A DNA stretch of 64,000 nucleotides from the IMG/VR virus record IMGVR_UViG_3300033067_002132, positions 1-64,000 of that record, one strand, 5' to 3'. Under the pieces are notes generated by a model that saw nothing but the letters and a program-made list of their open reading frames with translations, searched no databases and had not been told where the DNA came from. The translations under genes were made by a program, and so were the position numbers. Origin of the DNA: a virus (lineage: Duplodnaviria; Caudoviricetes). Below, one piece after another: positions 3 to 17,247 of this stretch (positions are counted from its first letter, which is position 1; every line of letters begins with the position of its first letter).

Positions 3-1262
3 ATTTCACTTTTAGCTAAGTGGATTCCTTCTATTAATACTTCTAGTCGAGAAAGTGTTTCTCAAGCATATAAGATTGCCAATTATTTTAATTGGAACGC
101 AAAGAAATATCGAAAGACTATTTCAGGATTACGCAAATATCTTGATGTAGTAGAACGAAGAATGTGTTCCAAAGAATGGGAGGGTATTGATTTTAATATT
201 GTTCCTTCTAACGCTACCTTATTATATAAGGACGCATTTAAGAAACACGATCCTACTCGCTATGCTAAATGGCAAGCAGACGTTAAAAAGGGTAAGAACG
301 GCGCAAAAATTAATGCGTCTACCTTATATCCTTATGATATTGTAAGAGATATCCTAAGTTATTCAGGAAATAGCGAAACTTGCAATTTGCAATGGGCCGC
401 ATTACCAAATTATTTAAAGAATAATCCAGATGAAGGTTTAGTATTATGTGATACTTCCTCTTCTATGGAAAGTTCGTTTAATGGAAACGCAATTCCTATT
501 CATGTTTCTGTTTCTTTAGCTTTATATATTGCAGAAAGAATGAAGGGACCATTCAAAAATCAATTCATTACTTTTGCTGAAAAGCCTCAATTAATTACTA
601 TTTCAGGAAAGACGATTACTGAAAAAGTTAAAAATATTGCAAAGGCACCTTGGGGTGGAAATACTAATTTAATGGCTGTATTTAAGTTAATTCTTAATTC
701 TGCTATGACTTGGAATGTTCCTCAAGAAGAAATGCCAAAGATATTATATATTGTATCTGATATGGAATTCGATTCCGCTTGTAAGAGTAATTCATTAACT
801 AATTTCGAGGAAGCAAAGAGATTATTTAAGAATTCAGGATACGAATTACCAAAGGTTGTCTTTTGGCGCGTAAACGTTATCAAAGAACAACAACCTGTAA
901 CTTTAGCAGAAAAGAATACTGTTTTAGTATCTGGATGTTCACCATCCGTATTACAAACCGTTCTATCTAATAGAGTTGTAACGCCGTTCTCTATTATGTT
1001 AGAGAAGTTAAATTCAGAACGTTATAATCGAGTAACAACACTTGGTAGTTGGAAAAATGTAAATTTTCCTGTTACTGTAGAAGGTAATATCGAAAATGTA
1101 TTAGAAGATACTTTTAGTTGTTTTCGCGAACAAGCAAAAGAAAAGAAACAAAAAAAAGTACAAAGTGTTGCTAAGGAATCTTTTCCAAAAAATCTAAAGG
1201 TTAGAGATCTAAATGGTCGATATACTAAATTAGAAAAAGGAAAGATAGTTAAAATAGCTTAA
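3..1262 (+). CDS. Ro60/TROVE-like vWA protein (DUF2828/DUF7788-like), 5'-truncated by window edge
   Basis: Frame is open from position 3 (ISLLAKWIPS...). MIDAS-like DTSSSM, WGGNTN, SDMEFD, VFWRV and VSGCSPS motifs are typical of this family. Confidence 0.8.
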   Translation: MSLLAKWIPSINTSSRESVSQAYKIANYFNWNAKKYRKTISGLRKYLDVVERRMCSKEWEGIDFNIVPSNATLLYKDAFKKHDPTRYAKWQADVKKGKNGAKINASTLYPYDIVRDILSYSGNSETCNLQWAALPNYLKNNPDEGLVLCDTSSSMESSFNGNAIPIHVSVSLALYIAERMKGPFKNQFITFAEKPQLITISGKTITEKVKNIAKAPWGGNTNLMAVFKLILNSAMTWNVPQEEMPKILYIVSDMEFDSACKSNSLTNFEEAKRLFKNSGYELPKVVFWRVNVIKEQQPVTLAEKNTVLVSGCSPSVLQTVLSNRVVTPFSIMLEKLNSERYNRVTTLGSWKNVNFPVTVEGNIENVLEDTFSCFREQAKEKKQKKVQSVAKESFPKNLKVRDLNGRYTKLEKGKIVKIA

Positions 1263-3049: not shown

Positions 3050-3140
3050 TGCCACCTACTCTAATTGGTAAGAGACAACGCTTTGAACGTTGTGTATGCA
3101 AGAAATTGTTATGAAGGTTCGAATCCTTCGGTGGCCGCCA
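3050..3140 (+). tRNA. tRNA-Gln(TTG) with long variable arm
   Basis: CAACG-CTTTGAA-CGTTG; 20-nt variable region; GAAGG-TTCGAAT-CCTTC; CCA. Confidence 0.8.
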
Positions 3141-3189: not shown

Positions 3190-3915
3190 ATGAGAAGATC
3201 AAAAATATATACTGTTTCAGACGAAGATTTTATTTTTTTAGTTAAAAATTCCAAGTCAATGTCTGAATTACTTTCTAAACTTATATTAGAAAATAAAGGT
3301 GGAAATTATTTAACAGTTAAAAGAAGGATTAAACAATTAAATATTAGTACCGAACATTTTTTATCTAGAACAAACGCTAGTCTTGCTGTAAATAAAATGA
3401 CGTTAGAAAAATTTTTAGAATTAATTAAAGGTAATTCAAAAATAAAAAGACATTCATTAAAAATATATTTATTACGTTTCAATTTAAAAGAATATAAATG
3501 TTTTATTTGTGAAAATGATGGATATTGGAATAATCAAAAATTAAGTTTACAATTAGATCATATTAATGGAAATAGTAATGATCATCGTTTAGATAATATA
3601 AGATTTTTATGTCCAAACTGTCATAGTCAAACAGATAATTTTGCGGGTAAAAAACGTAAAATTAGTAGAGAACCTTATAAATGTAAAAATTGTAATAAAA
3701 TTAAATTAAATAAAAGTCCGTTATGTATGGATTGTTTTATAATGGGAAAACATAATATTTTAAATATATCTGTAGATAATCTTTTAGAAAAAATTAAATT
3801 AAATTCTATGAGAGAGGTTTCAAGATTATTAAATATTCCTTATACAAGTTTAACAAGATTTTGTATTAAAAATAATATAGATTATAAAAATTTATGTCCA
3901 TCATTTCATGATTAA
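3190..3915 (+). CDS. HNH homing endonuclease
   Basis: LQLDHINGNSNDHRLDNIRFLCPNCHSQT. Confidence 0.9.
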   Translation: MRRSKIYTVSDEDFIFLVKNSKSMSELLSKLILENKGGNYLTVKRRIKQLNISTEHFLSRTNASLAVNKMTLEKFLELIKGNSKIKRHSLKIYLLRFNLKEYKCFICENDGYWNNQKLSLQLDHINGNSNDHRLDNIRFLCPNCHSQTDNFAGKKRKISREPYKCKNCNKIKLNKSPLCMDCFIMGKHNILNISVDNLLEKIKLNSMREVSRLLNIPYTSLTRFCIKNNIDYKNLCPSFHD

Positions 3916-4046: not shown

Positions 4047-4058
4047 ATTTTCAATAAT

Positions 4059-4134: not shown

Positions 4135-4200
4135 AATTTAGTTTAGATAAAAAAGAGTTTGACGAAAAGACAAACCTTTGATAGTATAGATGAAGATTTA

Positions 4201-4310
4201 AAGATACGTACAGCAACAATACATTTAATGTATAGCTCAATTAGCTGAGCATTTGCCTATCAAGCAAACGATGTGGGTGCGATTCCCGCTACAATAAAAA
4301 ACGTATCTTG
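4201..4310 (+). ncRNA. ACAGCAA-stem RNA copy 1, carrying a tRNA body
   Basis: AAGATACGT(4201-4209)/ACGTATCTT(4301-4309) + ACAGCAA enclosing D arm, anticodon arm (loop CTATCAA) and T arm; no CCA. Confidence 0.75.
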
Positions 4311-4322
4311 TTATTTCACAAT

Positions 4323-4417
4323 TTGCGAGTGTTTGAAAGACCGCTTATAAACGTCAATCTTTCAAATTTGGGCGCAAGTGCCGCGAGCGTAATTCAGCGA
4401 ATAAGCACTACTCGCAA
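4323..4417 (+). ncRNA. Unknown three-way-junction RNA
   Basis: TTGCGAGT/ACTCGCAA closing stem with TTTGAAAGA/TCTTTCAAA and AGTGC/GCACT arms. Confidence 0.5.
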
Positions 4418-4427
4418 TTTAATTTAA

Positions 4428-4503
4428 GCCGTCGTGCCTCGACTAGTAAGGGGCTTGTTTTGTAAACAAGTTTATATAGGAGCATAACCTATCGGCGGCT
4501 CCA
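4428..4503 (+). tRNA. tRNA-Thr(TGT)
   Basis: CTTGT-TTTGTAA-ACAAG, CCA. Confidence 0.85.
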
Positions 4504-4508
4504 GTTTT

Positions 4509-4640
4509 TAGATCCGTACAGCAACGTTAATCCTTAATGGAAAAGCAATTAGCCTTGAAAGCTAAGTATCCTAGTTCAAATCTAGGTCTGGGGACCAATT
4601 TTATTTTCCCCCAGATATGCAAAATAAAAAACGGATCTAG
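4509..4640 (+). ncRNA. ACAGCAA-stem RNA copy 2, carrying a circularly permuted tRNA
   Basis: TAGATCCGT/ACGGATCTA + ACAGCAA; inside, a 3' tRNA part ending TCTGGGG-ACCA precedes its 5' acceptor strand CCCCAGA-TA-TGC. Confidence 0.75.
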
Positions 4641-5308
4641 TTCAATTTAGAATTAATAATATTAGTAATAATATCTAAAAAGTATTTAGCTTTTTCGATC
4701 TTAAAATAAGTAAATTTTGAAGAATCAATAATACATAATTCTATATTATTTTCTAGACATGCTTGAAATTTTCTAGAATCATTATTTTTGATTTGATCCA
4801 ATTTTTCTTTTCCAAAAATAGGTTCATAATGAAAAATACCATTTAGCTCAAAAGCAAGTTTTAAAGATGGAATATGAATATCTAATTCAGAATTTATAGC
4901 GTCTTTTTTATTAAAATGAAATTCTAAATGTGGGTATAACTTAATAAGTTCAGATTGTAAATATTTCTCTAATTTAGAGATACGAGTTCCTGTAGTTTTG
5001 TGAGTATTATGATAAGTAGCAGAACAAGATTGTGAGCAAAAAGATTTATTTGATTTAATTTGAGAAATAATACGACTAAATTCTGTTTGACAAACTTCAC
5101 ATTTTAAAGATCGAACATTTCTTTGACTATCTGTTAAACATTTTCTAGAACAATATTTCATAAAATATCTATTAGATTTATTATTTAAAGATCTTTTAAT
5201 ATATTTTTGCATTCTAAAAAATTTATTTTTACAAAATTCGCATTCTAAAGGCAATAACTCATTATACTTAAAATTATTTAAAGTATTTATATCAAATAGA
5301 GGTTTCAT
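4637..5308 (-). CDS. Zn-finger + PD-(D/E)XK (Vsr/DUF559-like) homing-type endonuclease
   Basis: CxxC/YCS repeats; ELDIHIP...AFELNGIFHY. Confidence 0.75.
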   Translation of the reverse strand: MKPLFDINTLNNFKYNELLPLECEFCKNKFFRMQKYIKRSLNNKSNRYFMKYCSRKCLTDSQRNVRSLKCEVCQTEFSRIISQIKSNKSFCSQSCSATYHNTHKTTGTRISKLEKYLQSELIKLYPHLEFHFNKKDAINSELDIHIPSLKLAFELNGIFHYEPIFGKEKLDQIKNNDSRKFQACLENNIELCIIDSSKFTYFKIEKAKYFLDIITNIINSKLN

Positions 5309-6831: not shown

Positions 6832-6897
6832 AAGATCCGCACAGCAACAATAAAAATTATCACTCCATCATTACTGTGATAAGTAAAACGGATCTTG
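6832..6897 (+). ncRNA. ACAGCAA-stem RNA copy 3
   Basis: AAGATCCG/CGGATCTT + ACAGCAA enclosing a TTATCAC/GTGATAA hairpin. Confidence 0.7.
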
Positions 6898-7383: not shown

Positions 7384-7454
7384 GCGATAAGGCTGGGAAT
7401 GGTTTTCCGGAAACTTTCATAAGGTTTTGTAATCTGTTCGATTCAGATCTCGCT
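7384..7454 (+). pseudogene. tRNA-Met(CAT)-like, 3' acceptor strand damaged
   Basis: AAACT-TTCATAA-GGTTT and ATCTG-TTCGATT-CAGAT intact; 3' strand shortened, no CCA, overlapped by the end of the opposite-strand endonuclease gene. Confidence 0.65.
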
Positions 7455-8075
7455 TTTATCTTCTAATAAATCAATAATATATTTATTAAAATATTCTGTA
7501 AGAAATTTTTCAGTTAGTTTCTTAGATGTAAGATGACTTATATTTATAATTAATAAATTTATATTTTTTTGTTGTATTTCTAATTGTTTTAATAAGTCGT
7601 TATTTTGACATCTTTTTAATTTTTCTTGTCCATATATTGGAAAATAATGTACAGGACCATTTAATTCTATAGCAATCTTTTTAGAAGGAATATAAATGTC
7701 AAATTCTAAACTATTAGGTAAAGTATTTCTATCGTTTTCAATAATATGTAAAGAAGGAAAATCATTTTTTATTATATTTACTAATATTTTTTCAGCGCGA
7801 CTTTTGTTAATTCCAAATCTAGAAGATTTATTCCAGGTTCTATTTGCATAAGAAGCTTGACAAGATCTATTACAAAATTTTAAATTAGATTTACGCAAAG
7901 TTTTAGAAATATATTTTAAAGATTTTTTTGAGCAATTTGCACAAATAATCTCTGTTTTATTTATTGAATTATAATATTTAGTACAACATTGTTTGGAACA
8001 ATATTTAGTATGTTTTTGCAAAATTTTATTGCAAAATAAACAATTATATTTTTTTGTAATAATTATATTCTTCAT
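7443..8075 (-). CDS. Zn-finger + PD-(D/E)XK homing-type endonuclease
   Basis: LEFDIYIP...AIELNGPVHY; paralog of 4637-5308. Confidence 0.75.
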   Translation of the reverse strand: MKNIIITKKYNCLFCNKILQKHTKYCSKQCCTKYYNSINKTEIICANCSKKSLKYISKTLRKSNLKFCNRSCQASYANRTWNKSSRFGINKSRAEKILVNIIKNDFPSLHIIENDRNTLPNSLEFDIYIPSKKIAIELNGPVHYFPIYGQEKLKRCQNNDLLKQLEIQQKNINLLIINISHLTSKKLTEKFLTEYFNKYIIDLLEDKSEI

Positions 8076-8707: not shown

Positions 8708-8717
8708 ATTTTATAAT

Positions 8718-10190: not shown

Positions 10191-10952
10191 ATGAGCATTA
10201 GATCAGAACATGTAAAAATCTGGAGAGATAGAATTAAACAAAGAATTATTGATGCATTTAATGGTAAATGTGGAATTTGTGGTTATAATAAATGTAACGC
10301 GGCATTAGAATTACATCATATAAATCCAAGTGAAAAAGATTTTAGTTTTGGTAGAATAAGAGCGAATCCAAAAAATTGGGAATCTTTAGTTAGAGAATTA
10401 AGAAAATGTGTTTTATTATGTTCTAATTGTCATAGAGAAATTCATAATAACGTTTCTGAATTACCCAAAGATATAATTCGTTTTGATGAAGATTTTGCAG
10501 ATTACAAGAAAATAGAACTTTCGTTTAAAACAGAAACAATTATAAATAATTGTCCTATTTGTGGAAAAACTAAATATGTATGGAATAAAACATGTTCTTA
10601 TAATTGTGCTAATAAATTAATTGGTGTTTATAAATGGGAAGAATATAATTTAGAAGATTTATTTTTAAATAAAAAATATAAAATAGAAGATATTGCTGAT
10701 TTAATAGGTTGTTCTAATCAGGCAGTAATTAAACAATTAATTAAACAGAATTTATATAAACAAAAGAAAAAACATTTAATAAAATGGCCAAGTAAAGATA
10801 TTTTAGAAAAAGAAGTAAAAGAAAAATCTTTAAAAACGATATGTCAAGAAATAGGATGTTCTCATACTGGTCTAAGAAGACATTTAAAGACAATAGATAT
10901 AAAATGGTATGGACCTGGATTTTGGCAAAAAAAGAAATTTAATAAGTTTTAA
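10191..10952 (+). CDS. HNH homing endonuclease with C-terminal HTH repeats
   Basis: CGICG...LELHHINP...CVLLCSNCHREIH. Confidence 0.9.
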   Translation: MSIRSEHVKIWRDRIKQRIIDAFNGKCGICGYNKCNAALELHHINPSEKDFSFGRIRANPKNWESLVRELRKCVLLCSNCHREIHNNVSELPKDIIRFDEDFADYKKIELSFKTETIINNCPICGKTKYVWNKTCSYNCANKLIGVYKWEEYNLEDLFLNKKYKIEDIADLIGCSNQAVIKQLIKQNLYKQKKKHLIKWPSKDILEKEVKEKSLKTICQEIGCSHTGLRRHLKTIDIKWYGPGFWQKKKFNKF

Positions 10953-10953
10953 T

Positions 10954-11047
10954 TGTAGGGTACGCTAATTGGTAAGCGGCGATTCTGTTAAAGTCGTGCA
11001 ATCCTTTTTAATAAGGTATGAAGGTTCAAGTCCTTCCCCTACAGCCA
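10954..11047 (+). tRNA. tRNA-Asn(GTT) with long variable arm
   Basis: CGATT-CTGTTAA-AGTCG; 23-nt variable region; CCA. Confidence 0.8.
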
Positions 11048-11457: not shown

Positions 11458-12435
11458 GTGAGAAAATTAATAGATAAAGAGAAGTTAGGATTAGCGATTC
11501 AAAAAAGTTATTGCTATGAAGATATTTGTTTCTATTTAAATAGAAAAAGAAATACGCATTTTACTGATAAAATTAAATATTGTATTCAATACTATAATTT
11601 TGATATTAGTCATTTTAATAGAAATATTAAAAGATTTAAAAATAAAAGAATTAATAAAAAATGCCCTATTTGCAATAAAGAATTTGAAATAATATTAAAT
11701 AATAGAAAAGAAAGAAAATATTGTTCTCGTTATTGCGCTAATAGACCCTCTGTAGGAGATAGATATAATAAAATTAATAATGAAAAAAGATATAATACAT
11801 ATAAAACATATCTTCTAAAAAAGAAAGAAGAAAAAAGATTAATAGAAGAAGAAGAAAAAAGATTAGAACAAAAGTTAAAAATACCTTTATCAGCCTCTTT
11901 TCATTTTAAAAATAGAATTTTGAAAAATAAAATTCGTTATACCCATAATGGTAAACATTTTAAAATTTTTTGTAAAAATTGTGGAAAAGAACATATTACA
12001 AATAGATCTATTACAAAATTTTGTTCTGCTAAATGTGTTTCTAATTTTCATATAAAAAATAAAACACACAAAGGTTGGAAATCTAGAAATATAATATCTT
12101 ATCCAGAGCAATTCTTTATTAAAGTTTTAAATAAAAACGGTTTTGAAGGCAAATATAAAATTAATTATCCAATAACTAAAAAATCTTTAGGAATCAATTG
12201 TTCTTCTTGTTATTTTTTAGATTTTTATTTTCCTGATTTAAATTTAGATTTAGAAATAGATGGAAAACAACATAATTATCAAGAAAGATTAGAATCTGAT
12301 AATAAAAGAGACTTGACTTTAAAAGAAAACGGTTATAAGATTTATAGAATCAAATGGAAAAATATTAATAGAGAAGAAGGTAAGAAATATATTTCCGAAG
12401 AAATTATAAAACTTTTAGATTTACTAAACAAATAA
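11458..12435 (+). CDS. Zn-finger + DUF559/Vsr-like endonuclease
   Basis: YFLDFYF...LEIDGKQH...D..RD..L...GYKIYRI. Confidence 0.85.
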   Translation: MRKLIDKEKLGLAIQKSYCYEDICFYLNRKRNTHFTDKIKYCIQYYNFDISHFNRNIKRFKNKRINKKCPICNKEFEIILNNRKERKYCSRYCANRPSVGDRYNKINNEKRYNTYKTYLLKKKEEKRLIEEEEKRLEQKLKIPLSASFHFKNRILKNKIRYTHNGKHFKIFCKNCGKEHITNRSITKFCSAKCVSNFHIKNKTHKGWKSRNIISYPEQFFIKVLNKNGFEGKYKINYPITKKSLGINCSSCYFLDFYFPDLNLDLEIDGKQHNYQERLESDNKRDLTLKENGYKIYRIKWKNINREEGKKYISEEIIKLLDLLNK

Positions 12436-12440
12436 ATTTT

Positions 12441-12507
12441 TAGATCCATACAGCAATAAAAAATACTACTTGCCTGTTAAGCAAACAAAGTAAAAAACTG
12501 GATCTAG
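12441..12507 (+). ncRNA. ACAGCAA-stem RNA copy 4, carrying an anticodon stem-loop
   Basis: TAGATCCA/TGGATCTA + ACAGCAA enclosing TTGC-CTGTTAA-GCAA (loop identical to both tRNA-Asn loops). Confidence 0.75.
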
Positions 12508-16146: not shown

Positions 16147-16554
16147 GGGCGTGAAAGGATTCGACTTAATGATAAGTTGTATGAGCGCATGTCAAGGAAC
16201 TTAGTTGGCCTTGTAAAAAAACTAAGAAAAAGTTAAATGCTAATAATGACATTAGTGAAATGCTTGGTGAAATCTCTGCTAATCCGGATGCGGTTTTAGC
16301 TGAATTTGCTAGCGAAAATGTGTTAGTCTAATTAAAGATTAATCCGTTATAATAGATAACTCCGATAGTTTAATATAACGTAATTTTCGGAATTAATATT
16401 AAAGTTTTCTTTGCTTTATTATTTCTTATTAAAAAGAATATTGATTATGTCTTTTGTTTATTAAGATATAATACAGAATTAAAAATAAACTAAACATGTA
16501 GTGCAAATAAGCAAAATTATTAAGGACTTGGCTTCGATGCCAACACGTCCACCA
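16147..16554 (+). ncRNA. ssrA: tmRNA
   Basis: 5' GGGCGTGAAAGGATTCGAC, G3:U70 acceptor, pk1-like element, tag ORF, 3' T arm + CACGTCC-ACCA. Confidence 0.9.
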
Positions 16555-17154: not shown

Positions 17155-17247
17155 GGTCCCTTAGCGTAACGGTTAACGCGACACCCTTATAAGGTGGAAG
17201 CTCTAGATTTGAGCAAGATGTAGGTTCGAATCCTACAGGGACTACCA
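17155..17247 (+). tRNA. tRNA-Ile(TAT) with long variable arm
   Basis: Loop CTTATAA; GCTC-TAGATTT-GAGC variable arm; CCA. Confidence 0.8.

What the first reader, a model, noticed from the sequence alone, without database searches (positions are those of the whole stretch)
4509..4640. Circularly permuted tRNA opened in the D loop
Seen, in order: GG + 3' D strand GCA (4545), TTAGC-CTTGAAA-GCTAA (anticodon TGA), CCTAG-TTCAAAT-CTAGG, TCTGGGG-ACCA (4587-4597), an 11-nt linker, then CCCCAGA-TA-TGC (4609-4620). The last part is the 5' acceptor strand, U8A9 and the 5' D strand. The ACAGCAA stem occupies the D loop. Established: permuted tRNA genes are known in some algae and archaea, and YrlA has a loop-closed acceptor stem. 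Inference: either a mimic with an internal, blocked CCA, or an RNA that is processed into a two-piece tRNA held by the stem.
Basis: partly seen in the sequence, partly recalled or inferred. Interest (0 to 1): 0.8.

Follow-up and report, generated by a model that had tools for sequence, protein, structure and literature searches.

The report
Inside-out tRNA on a Ro60-type handle
This phage carries a small RNA gene that holds a complete tRNA written in rotated order, with its amino-acid end closed into a loop; it sits on a short conserved "handle" that travels with a Ro60-shaped protein gene, so it is most likely a new form of Y-RNA-like tRNA mimic, not an ordinary tRNA.

Summary
At 4508-4640 (+) a 10-bp closing stem encloses ACAGCAAC, a D-loop-like GG stretch, an anticodon arm (UGA), a T arm, then TCTGGGG-ACCA, an 11-nt linker and CCCCAGA-TA-TGC. 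Re-ordered, the parts make a 75-nt tRNA for ARAGORN; the native order does not.

It is not an isolated oddity. The closing stem plus ACAGCAA is a "handle" found four times in this phage. In other IMG/VR phages it either encloses cargo or sits inside tRNA-like genes. Across 80 loci the handle lies on the gene strand, 25-50 times denser within 500 nt of a DUF2828/DUF7788 gene than further away. That protein folds like Ro60, and this phage encodes one 3.2 kb upstream.

Best reading: a Y-RNA-like partner RNA of YrlA type with a complete permuted tRNA as cargo. RNase P probably cuts it into two pieces, because the acceptor "loop" is identical to this phage's real tRNA-tRNA junctions. Not settled: binding to the protein, the cut, and whether the break lies in the D loop or just before the D arm. 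No ortholog was found.

An algal/archaeal-type permuted tRNA gene is not supported. This scan has reported the same handle family in at least 66 other genomes; I found no published description.

The parts
4508..4517 (+). handle, 5' arm (UUAGAUCCGU)
   Evidence: Pairs with 4631-4640 in the MFE fold. It fits the family consensus AGRT + 3-5 covarying bases.
4518..4525 (+). conserved handle motif ACAGCAAC
   Evidence: C-A-G-C-A-A is near-invariant in 119 unique handles. In this genome AGAT-N4-ACAGCAA occurs 4 times on the + strand and 0 times on the - strand.
4526..4548 (+). D-arm region: GG 4539-4540 (G18 G19), A21, GCA 4545-4547, A26; alternative local hairpin 4533-4535/4543-4545
Evidence: The Rfam tRNA alignment places a local D arm here. 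Energies do not decide between them.
4549..4565 (+). anticodon arm, 5 bp, loop CUUGAAA (U33, anticodon UGA, A37)
4566..4569 (+). short variable loop GUAU
   Evidence: This is a class I shape, so it is not a bacterial tRNA-Ser by shape (established knowledge).
4570..4586 (+). T arm, 5 bp, loop UUCAAAU
4587..4597 (+). acceptor 3' strand UCUGGGG + discriminator A + CCA
   Evidence: The CCA is followed by ATTTT, as in nearly all tRNA genes of this phage.
4598..4608 (+). 11-nt linker AUUUUAUUUUC that closes the acceptor stem
   Evidence: It has the same make-up and length as real tRNA-tRNA spacers here, which are 6-12 nt (for example 8708-8717 and 4047-4058).
4609..4620 (+). acceptor 5' strand CCCCAGA, U8 A9, UGC (candidate D-stem 5' strand)
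   Evidence: 7/7 pairs with 4587-4593. UGC can pair with 4545-4547; this pairing is inferred.
4621..4630 (+). A-rich linker AAAAUAAAAA before the 3' arm
   Evidence: An A-rich run before the 3' arm is a family feature.
4631..4640 (+). handle, 3' arm ACGGAUCUA + G
   Evidence: ATCT(A/T)G is conserved in the family. The stop codon of the convergent HNH-like ORF (4637-5308, minus strand) overlaps it.
3..1262 (+). Ro60-like protein gene (DUF2828 + DUF7788, phrog_850 'RNA-binding protein'), cut at its 5' end by the start of the record
   Evidence: A full-length homologue folds like Ro60/TROVE+vWA.
4201..4309 (+). sibling handle RNA enclosing a whole tRNA cloverleaf (anticodon AUC, no CCA)
   Evidence: Rfam tRNA 55 bits. 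A promoter-like TTGACG-17-TAGTAT lies at 4159-4187.
6832..6896 (+). sibling handle RNA enclosing one hairpin
12441..12506 (+). sibling handle RNA enclosing an Asn-type anticodon stem-loop TTGC-CTGTTAA-GCAA
   Evidence: The same hairpin sits in a handle in L078 at 3778-3830.

Best explanation
The element is a small non-coding RNA of a Y-RNA-like kind. Its 10-bp closing stem with the adjoining ACAGCAAC and the A-rich 3' linker forms a conserved 'handle'. The handle most likely docks the phage's Ro60-shaped DUF2828/DUF7788 protein, as the terminal stem of Y RNAs docks Ro60.

The cargo on the handle is a complete tRNA in rotated order: D-loop 3' part, anticodon arm, T arm, acceptor 3' strand, ACCA, spacer, acceptor 5' strand, U8-A9.

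The acceptor 'loop' is sequence-wise an ordinary tRNA-tRNA junction of this phage, and the stem has 7 bp next to a T arm. Host RNase P therefore probably cuts 5' of C4609, and the 3' side is trimmed to the encoded CCA. The result would be a two-piece tRNA look-alike held together by the acceptor stem and the handle.

The particle would present a tRNA shape (elbow, anticodon loop, perhaps a free CCA end) to tRNA-binding factors, as a tether or a decoy.

Shown: the anatomy, membership of the handle family, the linkage of handles to the Ro60-like gene, and the Ro60-like fold. Inferred: protein binding, the RNase P cut, and the biological role.
For: Anatomy and fold.

Handle family:
- There are four same-strand copies in this genome with compensatory changes in the stem.
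- 119 unique handles were collected. Pairs 5-7 of the stem run through all four Watson-Crick types, and the CAGCAA core is near-invariant.
- Both topologies occur. The handle encloses cargo, or it sits inside tRNA-like genes that the Rfam tRNA model reads as tRNAs with 40-60-nt inserts.

Linkage to the protein gene:
- In 80 loci with a DUF2828 gene, 79 strict handles lie on the gene strand and 1 on the other strand.
- Handle density is 0.43 and 0.84 per kb within 500 nt of the gene ends, against 0.016-0.028 per kb beyond 1.5 kb.
- One relative has an array of 7 handle RNAs starting about 55 nt after the gene. Another has 3 handles ending 17 nt before the start codon.
- In this genome the gene is at 3-1262, 3.2 kb upstream on the same strand.

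Protein fold: the top 12 Foldseek PDB hits of the AF2 model are all Ro60/TROVE, including Thermus phage phiLo Ro60, Xenopus Ro and D. radiodurans Rsr (E 5e-6 to 2e-3, aligned over the full length).

YrlA link: Rfam YrlA gives sub-threshold hits (33.6 and 24.2 bits) on RNAs just upstream of a DUF2828 gene.

Processing:
- M. smegmatis YrlA sets the precedent (PMC4201824).
- The junction ACCA-attttattttc-CCCCAGA looks like the real tRNA junctions of this phage.

An analogous element in L023 keeps all three helices, with 11 of 17 pairs changed on both sides.
Against: - No ortholog of this particular element was found, so its own helices have no covariation test.
- The Rfam YrlA model does not match it, even at E up to 10.
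- The YrlA motif GNCGAAN0-1G is absent.
- Pfam TROVE does not hit this genome. The Ro60 likeness rests on a medium-confidence model (pLDDT 70, TM 0.4-0.45).
- The Ro60-like gene of this record is cut off at the record's start, so it is not known to be intact.
- Three handle-bearing records showed no DUF2828 gene, but they are 17-68% complete.
- There are no expression or binding data.
Confidence: 0.6

Rival explanations
1. A working split tRNA. After RNase P and 3' trimming, the two pieces form a chargeable tRNA that decodes UCA/UCG on the ribosome. In this reading the handle only clamps the nick in the D region.
For: - All universally conserved tRNA positions can be assigned: U8, A14, R15, G18 G19, A21, U33, R37, Y48, G53-C61, T-loop UUCAAAU, and A73-CCA (sequence).
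- The CCA is encoded and followed by the same trailer as real tRNAs.
- ARAGORN finds no other UGA-anticodon tRNA in the 194-kb record.
- A related phage has an ordinary short-arm tRNA(UGA) (L078 2348-2421).
Against: - With a short variable loop and A73 it lacks the long arm that bacterial SerRS needs (established knowledge), so no charging enzyme is evident.
- A 10-bp helix plus about 25 nt of linkers at the elbow has no precedent in a translating tRNA.
- The same handle carries cargo that cannot be tRNAs: a bare hairpin, a bare anticodon stem-loop, and mimics without an anticodon arm.
- The handle tracks a Ro60-like gene.
Confidence: 0.15
2. An evolutionary by-product without a function of its own. 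A tandem tRNA junction (the 3' part of one copy, the spacer, and the 5' start of the next) became trapped between the two arms of a handle and is on its way to decay.
For: - The acceptor 'loop' is indistinguishable from a tRNA-tRNA spacer.
- The region is riddled with HNH homing-endonuclease-like genes that promote rearrangement.
- No ortholog was found.
- The string CCAGATATGCAAAATAAA recurs as the 3' end of a normal tRNA in L008, which shows that such short strings are shared among tRNA genes of these phages.
Against: - Nothing is decayed. The handle stem pairs at all 10 positions (9 Watson-Crick pairs plus a terminal U-G), and the anticodon (5/5), T (5/5) and acceptor (7/7) stems are fully Watson-Crick, with canonical loops.
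- L023 holds an independent element of the same layout with different sequence.
- Notes from other agents of this scan report whole inside-out tRNAs on the same handle in other genomes (not checked by me).
Confidence: 0.12
3. A permuted tRNA gene of the algal/archaeal kind. The handle would be a splice signal, the ends would be cut and ligated into a circle, and RNase P and 3' trimming would then release an ordinary contiguous tRNA.
For: - The gene order is the same as in Cyanidioschyzon permuted tRNA genes.
- Handles also sit inside tRNA-like genes at varying positions, as mobile introns do.
Against: - The stem is a perfect 10-bp helix with no bulge-helix-bulge motif.
- No RtcB or Rnl2-type ligase is present in the record.
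- Removing the handle would leave a D loop of about 29 nt.
- Tandem handles without any tRNA part flank the Ro60-like gene.
- tRNA-like genes that carry the handle have aberrant anticodon arms even if the handle were removed.
Confidence: 0.05
4. A DNA-level element (recombination or nuclease site, or a cruciform) whose inverted repeats happen to flank tRNA debris.
For: - Inverted repeats flank variable 'cassettes'.
- Homing endonuclease-like genes lie next door.
Against: - There is strict strand bias: 79 to 1, and always the tRNA/gene strand.
- G-U pairs occur in the stems.
- The conserved motif lies on one arm only.
- The closed form occurs inside tRNA transcripts.
Confidence: 0.03

Closest known systems
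YrlA-type Y RNAs with Ro60/Rsr (Salmonella, M. smegmatis, mycobacteriophages; Rfam RF02553; Chen et al. 2014, PMC4201824)
   Same: - It is a small RNA encoded within 4 kb of, and on the same strand as, a Ro60-shaped protein gene.
- A terminal stem with a short conserved motif on its 5' strand side sits next to a tRNA mimic.
- The mimic runs in the order T arm, loop-closed acceptor stem, U8-A9.
- M. smegmatis YrlA also has a 7-bp acceptor. It is cut there by RNase P, gains CCA, and stays as two pieces on Rsr.
   Different: - The motif is ACAGCAA, not GNCGAAN0-1G.
- The RF02553 model does not match.
- The partner is a DUF2828/DUF7788 protein that Pfam TROVE does not recognise.
- The anticodon arm is kept, and the terminal stem leaves from the D region instead of replacing the anticodon arm.
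- The CCA is encoded.
Thermus phage phiLo Ro60 with Yrl1/Yrl2 (PMC12135203; PDB 9KOP, 9L5Y)
   Same: A phage-encoded Ro60-fold protein with partner RNA genes beside it. It is the best structural match of the DUF2828 model.
   Different: The phiLo RNAs carry the CGAA motif and no described tRNA mimic. Sequence identity of the proteins is about 15-17%.
Circularly permuted tRNA genes of Cyanidioschyzon merolae and some archaea
   Same: The 3' half with CCA lies upstream of the 5' half, joined by a short linker at the acceptor ends.
   Different: Those genes rely on a bulge-helix-bulge motif, a splicing endonuclease and a ligase, and they yield a contiguous tRNA. None of these features is present here.
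Two-piece tmRNA from permuted ssrA genes (alpha-proteobacteria, cyanobacteria)
   Same: A bacterial-world precedent for a permuted gene whose acceptor 3' strand-CCA precedes the 5' strand. It is processed into two base-paired pieces.
   Different: The element has no tag reading frame or pseudoknots. The phage has a separate one-piece tmRNA at 16147-16554.

Membership tests
YrlA (Rfam RF02553) | Match to the RF02553 covariance model | tested here: not met
   No YrlA hit at E up to 10 on 4380-4720. Relatives next to a DUF2828 gene reach only 33.6 and 24.2 bits, against a gathering score of 69.
YrlA (Rfam RF02553) | GNCGAAN0-1G motif near the 5' end (PMC4201824) | tested here: not met
   The sequence after the 5' arm is ACAGCAAC. 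The family consensus is (A/T)CAGCAA.
YrlA (Rfam RF02553) | Encoded within about 4 kb of a Ro60 ortholog, on the same strand | tested here: met
   The Ro60-like gene is at 3-1262 (+) and the element at 4508-4640 (+). Caveat: the protein is Ro60-like by fold, not by Pfam TROVE.
YrlA (Rfam RF02553) | tRNA-like domain with a T arm, a D arm and a loop-closed acceptor stem | tested here: met
   The T arm and the closed 7-bp acceptor are clear. The D arm is present in one of two possible forms.
YrlA (Rfam RF02553) | Terminal (Ro-binding) stem takes the place of the anticodon arm | tested here: not met
   An intact 5-bp anticodon arm with a 7-nt loop lies at 4549-4565. The terminal stem leaves from the D region.
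YrlA (Rfam RF02553) | Bound by the Ro60 protein | not testable with these tools
   This needs RIP or EMSA.
ACAGCAA-handle RNAs next to DUF2828 genes (no published name found) | 7-10-bp stem starting AGRT, then (A/T)CAGCAA, an A-rich run before the 3' arm, and ATCT(A/T)G at the 3' end | tested here: met
   All features are present at 4508-4525 and 4621-4640, matching the consensus of 119 handles.
ACAGCAA-handle RNAs next to DUF2828 genes (no published name found) | Same strand as, and near, a DUF2828/DUF7788 gene | tested here: met
   The element lies 3.2 kb downstream on the same strand. Family-wide enrichment is 25-50-fold within 500 nt of the gene.
Permuted tRNA genes (algal/archaeal type) | The 3' half precedes the 5' half, with the acceptor ends joined by a linker | tested here: met
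Permuted tRNA genes (algal/archaeal type) | Bulge-helix-bulge motif formed by the transcript ends | tested here: not met
   The ends form an uninterrupted 10-bp helix.
Permuted tRNA genes (algal/archaeal type) | A ligase is available to close the circle | tested here: not met
   No RtcB or RNA_ligase family is present in the record. The T4 Rnl1 search had no working control. Host enzymes are unknown.
Canonical tRNA | Recognised in native order by tRNA finders | tested here: not met
   ARAGORN finds nothing. The Rfam tRNA match is partial (26.4 bits, below the threshold of 29).
Two-piece tmRNA | Tag reading frame and pseudoknots between the two acceptor strands | tested here: not met
   ARAGORN and Rfam find only the one-piece tmRNA at 16147-16554. 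The element is 133 nt long and has no reading frame.

The most novel reading that the evidence does not exclude
The RNA is cut by RNase P into a two-piece tRNA that is really aminoacylated, through its genome-encoded CCA, while it rides on the Ro60-like ring. That would be the first split, chargeable tRNA from the bacterial/phage world. The ring protein would then deliver, guard or repair a working decoder rather than a mere mimic.
Probability: 0.12. Interest if true: 0.9.

Novelty: new variant of a known kind. Interest (0 to 1): 0.66.

Why it matters
Ro60/Y-RNA particles are known from animals, bacteria and a few phages, but what the tRNA-like part of bacterial Y RNAs does is still an open question. 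This element belongs to a second, apparently unpublished class, with its own handle (stem + ACAGCAA) and its own Ro60-shaped protein family (DUF2828/DUF7788).

It is also the most tRNA-complete form of that class seen here. It has an anticodon arm, an encoded CCA and an acceptor 'loop' that is a natural RNase P site. That makes it a convenient test object for three questions:
- Does the ring protein bind the handle?
- Is the mimic opened into two pieces?
- Is it charged, or does it soak up tRNA-directed enzymes such as host anticodon nucleases?

It also shows how such RNAs may arise from two adjoining tRNA genes. For annotation, tRNA finders miss it, and they miss the tRNA-like genes that carry the handle inside.

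Tried and rejected
- **Search for orthologs of this element.** An exact 24-mer scan of viral contigs found nothing. A loop-anchored pattern found nothing in viral contigs. The same pattern in metagenome contigs gave one chance hit inside a coding region. blastn against GenBank phages found only ordinary tRNA-Leu matches.
- **Single-sequence covariance model R1 over 50 loci.** Most hits were ordinary tRNAs. It did lead to the empty handle in L003 and to the B-like element in L023.
- **Known RNA families.** No ribozyme, riboswitch or Y RNA family matched the element at E up to 10.
- **Intrinsic terminator reading.** No T run follows the stem on either strand.
- **Retron-like reading** (stem followed by a branching G). 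I dropped it because the handle also occurs closed by a 4-nt loop inside tRNA-like genes.
- **Pairing partner for ACAGCAA inside the cargo.** A partner is present in copies 6832 and 12441 but not in this one, so it is not general.
- **Pfam TROVE and RtcB in this genome.** Both were absent. Sequence search of the DUF2828 protein against PDB found nothing. Only the fold comparison showed Ro60.
- **Joining the record's end to its start** to complete the Ro60-like gene. The frame closes after 7 more codons, so the N-terminus is missing from the record.
- **Energy comparison of the two D-arm models.** It was inconclusive; an earlier attempt had wrong coordinates.
- **Literature.** Searches for permuted tRNA in phages, tRNA introns in large phages, and DUF2828 found no description of this handle.

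Full report
**What is there.** The window is the first 64 kb of a 193.7-kb IMG/VR phage record (29% G+C) with more than 20 tRNA genes and a tmRNA. In order:
- a stem arm UUAGAUCCGU (4508-4517);
- ACAGCAAC (4518-4525);
- a stretch with AAUGGAAAAGCA;
- an anticodon arm UUAGC-CUUGAAA-GCUAA (4549-4565);
- GUAU;
- a T arm CCUAG-UUCAAAU-CUAGG (4570-4586);
- UCUGGGG-ACCA (4587-4597);
- an 11-nt linker;
- CCCCAGA-UA-UGC (4609-4620);
- AAAAUAAAAA;
- the second stem arm ACGGAUCUAG (4631-4640).

The minimum-energy fold contains the outer stem, both arms and the closed 7-bp acceptor hairpin (-36.8 kcal/mol, z = -4.0, none of 200 shuffles as good). The Rfam tRNA model matches only the body (model positions 7-64, 26.4 bits). 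ARAGORN finds nothing in the native order. It calls a 75-nt tRNA(tga) when the 5' acceptor piece is placed in front. The permutation is therefore real.

**It is one of a family.** The outer stem plus ACAGCAA occurs four times in this genome, always on the + strand, each time with a matching 3' arm and with compensatory differences in the inner base pairs:
- 4201-4309 encloses a whole tRNA cloverleaf;
- 4508-4640 is the present element;
- 6832-6896 encloses a hairpin;
- 12441-12506 encloses an Asn-type anticodon stem-loop.

The same 'handle' is found in other IMG/VR phages in two topologies.
- In the open form the two arms enclose a cargo. Examples are L078 5638-5748, L258 4580-4690 and L041 7571-7702. 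There the order is T arm, closed acceptor hairpin, D arm, which is the YrlA order.
- In the closed form the arms are joined by a 4-10-nt loop and the handle sits inside a tRNA-like gene. It lies between the D and anticodon arms, in the anticodon loop, or in place of the D arm. The Rfam tRNA model reads these genes as tRNAs with 40-60-nt inserts, and ARAGORN misses them.

The two forms are circular permutations of one another.

Over 119 unique handles, stem pairs 1-4 are nearly fixed (A-U, G-C, A-U, U-A). Pairs 5-7 run through all four Watson-Crick types. C-A-G-C-A-A is almost invariant. The eight bases before the 3' arm are mostly A, and a G follows the 3' arm.

**The handle travels with a Ro60-shaped protein gene.**
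- The first ORF of the window (3-1262, cut by the start of the record) is DUF2828 + DUF7788, phrog_850 'RNA-binding protein'.
- In a relative, the full-length 506-aa gene is followed after about 55 nt, behind a TTGACA-16-TAAGAT promoter-like site, by seven handle RNAs within 640 nt.
- In another relative, three handles end 17 nt before the gene's start codon.
- In 80 loci fetched with an alignment of these proteins (identity down to 41%), 79 strict handles lie on the gene strand and 1 on the other strand. Density is 0.43 per kb in the 500 nt upstream and 0.84 per kb in the 500 nt downstream, against 0.016-0.028 per kb beyond 1.5 kb.
- Pfam TROVE does not hit this genome, and sequence search against PDB is blank.
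- An AlphaFold model of the 506-aa protein (pLDDT 70) has Ro60/TROVE proteins as its twelve best Foldseek matches in the PDB, aligned over the full length. They include Thermus phage phiLo Ro60, Xenopus and human Ro60, and D. radiodurans Rsr (E 5e-6 to 2e-3).
- Rfam's YrlA model gives sub-threshold but significant hits (33.6 bits, E 1.6e-5; 24.2 bits) on RNAs just upstream of one such gene.

The simplest reading is that handle RNAs are to the DUF2828 protein what Y RNAs are to Ro60.

**Comparison with published Y RNAs.** Chen et al. 2014 (PMC4201824) found YrlA RNAs within 4 kb of Ro60 genes, on the same strand, in 254 bacteria and 22 phages.
- YrlA RNAs have a GNCGAAN0-1G motif on the 5' strand of the terminal stem.
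- Their tRNA-like domain has a T arm, a loop-closed acceptor stem and a D arm.
- M. smegmatis YrlA, the only one with a 7-bp acceptor, is cut by RNase P in vivo and in vitro and receives CCA. Both halves co-precipitate with Rsr.

Thermus phage phiLo encodes a Ro60 with two adjacent Y-like RNAs that carry a CGAA motif (PMC12135203).

The present element shares the logic but fails three membership tests for YrlA: the model does not match, the motif differs, and the anticodon arm is retained. I found no paper on DUF2828 in this context, and none on permuted tRNAs or this handle in phages.

**What is special about this copy.**
1. The cargo is a complete tRNA. Assignable positions are U8, A9, A14/R15, G18 G19, A21, A26, U33, A37, U48, G53-C61, the UUCAAAU T loop, A73 and CCA (sequence).
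2. The acceptor 'loop' is not an arbitrary cap. ACCA-attttattttc-CCCCAGA has the trailer (NCCA + ATTT) and the leader style of nearly every tRNA gene in this phage. Its 11 nt fall within the 6-12-nt spacers between adjacent tRNA genes here. This suggests an origin from two adjoining tRNA copies. It also suggests that the enzymes that separate neighbouring tRNAs (RNase P and 3' trimming) act here too. The result would be a piece of about 90 nt ending in CCA and a piece of about 32 nt, held together by 7 + 10 base pairs. Cofolding keeps all helices.
3. The break point lies in the D region, not in the anticodon loop.

The energies are -29.7 and -31.1 kcal/mol, against -32.0 with no D stem.

The one element of like layout that I found is L023(-) 7517-7606. 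It has an anticodon arm, a T arm, UUCCCCC-GCCA, a 23-nt linker, GGGGGAA, an A-rich tail and a 5-bp closing stem, but no ACAGCAA. A local UUCG hairpin sits in the D position. Compared with the present element, 11 of its 17 stem pairs are changed on both sides and still paired.

Another handle RNA, L229 4814-4904, lies 100 nt upstream of a DUF2828 gene. It also has an encoded ACCA inside a closed 7-bp acceptor (AAAAUGC-ACCA-ACAUU-GCAUUUU).

**Mechanism and rivals.** I rate the Y-RNA-like partner RNA, probably opened by RNase P, at 0.6.
- A translating split tRNA (0.15) would fill the missing UGA anticodon. However, it has no evident charging enzyme (short variable loop, A73), and it shares its handle with cargos that cannot be tRNAs.
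- A functionless by-product of rearrangement (0.12) fits the lack of orthologs and the homing-endonuclease-rich surroundings. It does not fit the fully paired helices.
- An algal/archaeal-type permuted gene with a circular intermediate (0.05) lacks the bulge-helix-bulge motif and any ligase in the record.
- A DNA-level repeat (0.03) is contradicted by the 79:1 strand bias and the one-sided motif.

What the particle does is inference. By analogy with Ro60/Y RNA/PNPase it could tether the ring protein to tRNA-binding factors. It could also act as a decoy for tRNA-directed enzymes: the sibling cargos display Asn-type and Asp-like anticodon loops.

**Caveats.**
- No expression or binding data exist.
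- The protein model is of medium confidence.
- The Ro60-like gene of this record lacks its 5' end.
- Three handle-bearing records had no DUF2828 gene, but they are 17-68% complete.
- No ortholog of this copy was found.
- Notes from other agents of this scan report the same handle/DUF2828 pairing in at least 66 other genomes, including whole inside-out tRNAs. I had recognised the repeated handle and its two topologies before opening any note, and read most of them only after I had tested the protein link. One note on this window gave me the lead to look for a Ro60-like protein, which I then tested myself.

Noticed in passing
window 4428-4500: A tRNA-like gene sits directly in front of the element. 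Rfam tRNA gives 35.6 bits and ARAGORN misses it. It has the anticodon loop UUGUAAA (GUA, Tyr-type), a short variable region and an odd T loop AGCAUAA. It ends ...GGCGGCU-CCA, 7 nt before the handle.
   Followed up: partly
window 3050-3140, 10954-11047, 17155-17247; genome 77123-77216: tRNA-Gln(UUG), tRNA-Asn(GUU) and two tRNA-Ile(UAU) genes are 91-94 nt long with about 20-nt variable arms. Long arms are normally confined to Leu, Ser and Tyr.
   Followed up: no
whole genome, tRNA genes: Nearly every tRNA gene encodes its CCA and is followed by ATTT(T). No CCA-adding enzyme gene (PF01743) was found in the record.
   Followed up: partly
window 3190-3915, 4637-5308(-), 7443-8075(-), 10191-10952, 11458-12435: Five HNH or homing-endonuclease-like ORFs are scattered among the tRNA and handle RNA genes. 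The 223-aa type (4637-5308) has relatives in at least 50 viral loci, often several per phage. The last ORF also carries a DUF559 nuclease domain, and the handle RNA at 12441 starts 6 nt after its stop codon.
   Followed up: partly
window 3-1262: The Ro60-like ORF is cut by the start of the record, and joining the record's end to its start does not complete it. It also has about 125 residues more at the C-terminus than its 506-aa relative.
   Followed up: partly
L186 2540-3225 (= L092 8640-9300): A promoter-like TTGACA-16-TAAGAT is followed by seven handle RNAs in 640 nt right after a Ro60-like gene. They alternate between open handles without tRNA parts and tRNA-like genes with the handle inside. 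Motif variants TCAGCAA, TCAGCGA, TCTGCAA and ACTGCAC occur.
   Followed up: partly
L109 2255-2820: Four tRNA-like genes in a row carry the handle as a hairpin (GAATCTA-loop-TAGATTC + GTACAGCAAT) between the D arm and the anticodon arm. ARAGORN sees none of them.
   Followed up: partly
L023 7500-7640 (minus strand): A permuted tRNA-like element with an anticodon arm, a T arm and a closed acceptor with GCCA, but with a plain 5-bp closing stem and no ACAGCAA. I did not check whether a Ro60-like gene is nearby.
   Followed up: partly
L068 (minus strand; G005 ~49530): A mini tRNA-like gene consists of acceptor GCCAGAG/CUCUGGC + G + CCA and a T arm. The handle hairpin plus ACAGCAAAC-CAUUAGGAAAU stands in place of both the D and anticodon arms.
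   Followed up: no
genome 83140-83300 (outside the window): A tRNA-Lys-like gene is interrupted after the anticodon by a structured insert of about 70 nt that does not contain the handle. Another agent of this scan has already described it.
   Followed up: no
L092 12209-12305 and 1596-1632: Rfam wcaG RNA (67 bits) and abiF RNA (45 bits) match, both above their gathering scores, in the phage that carries the seven-handle array.
   Followed up: no
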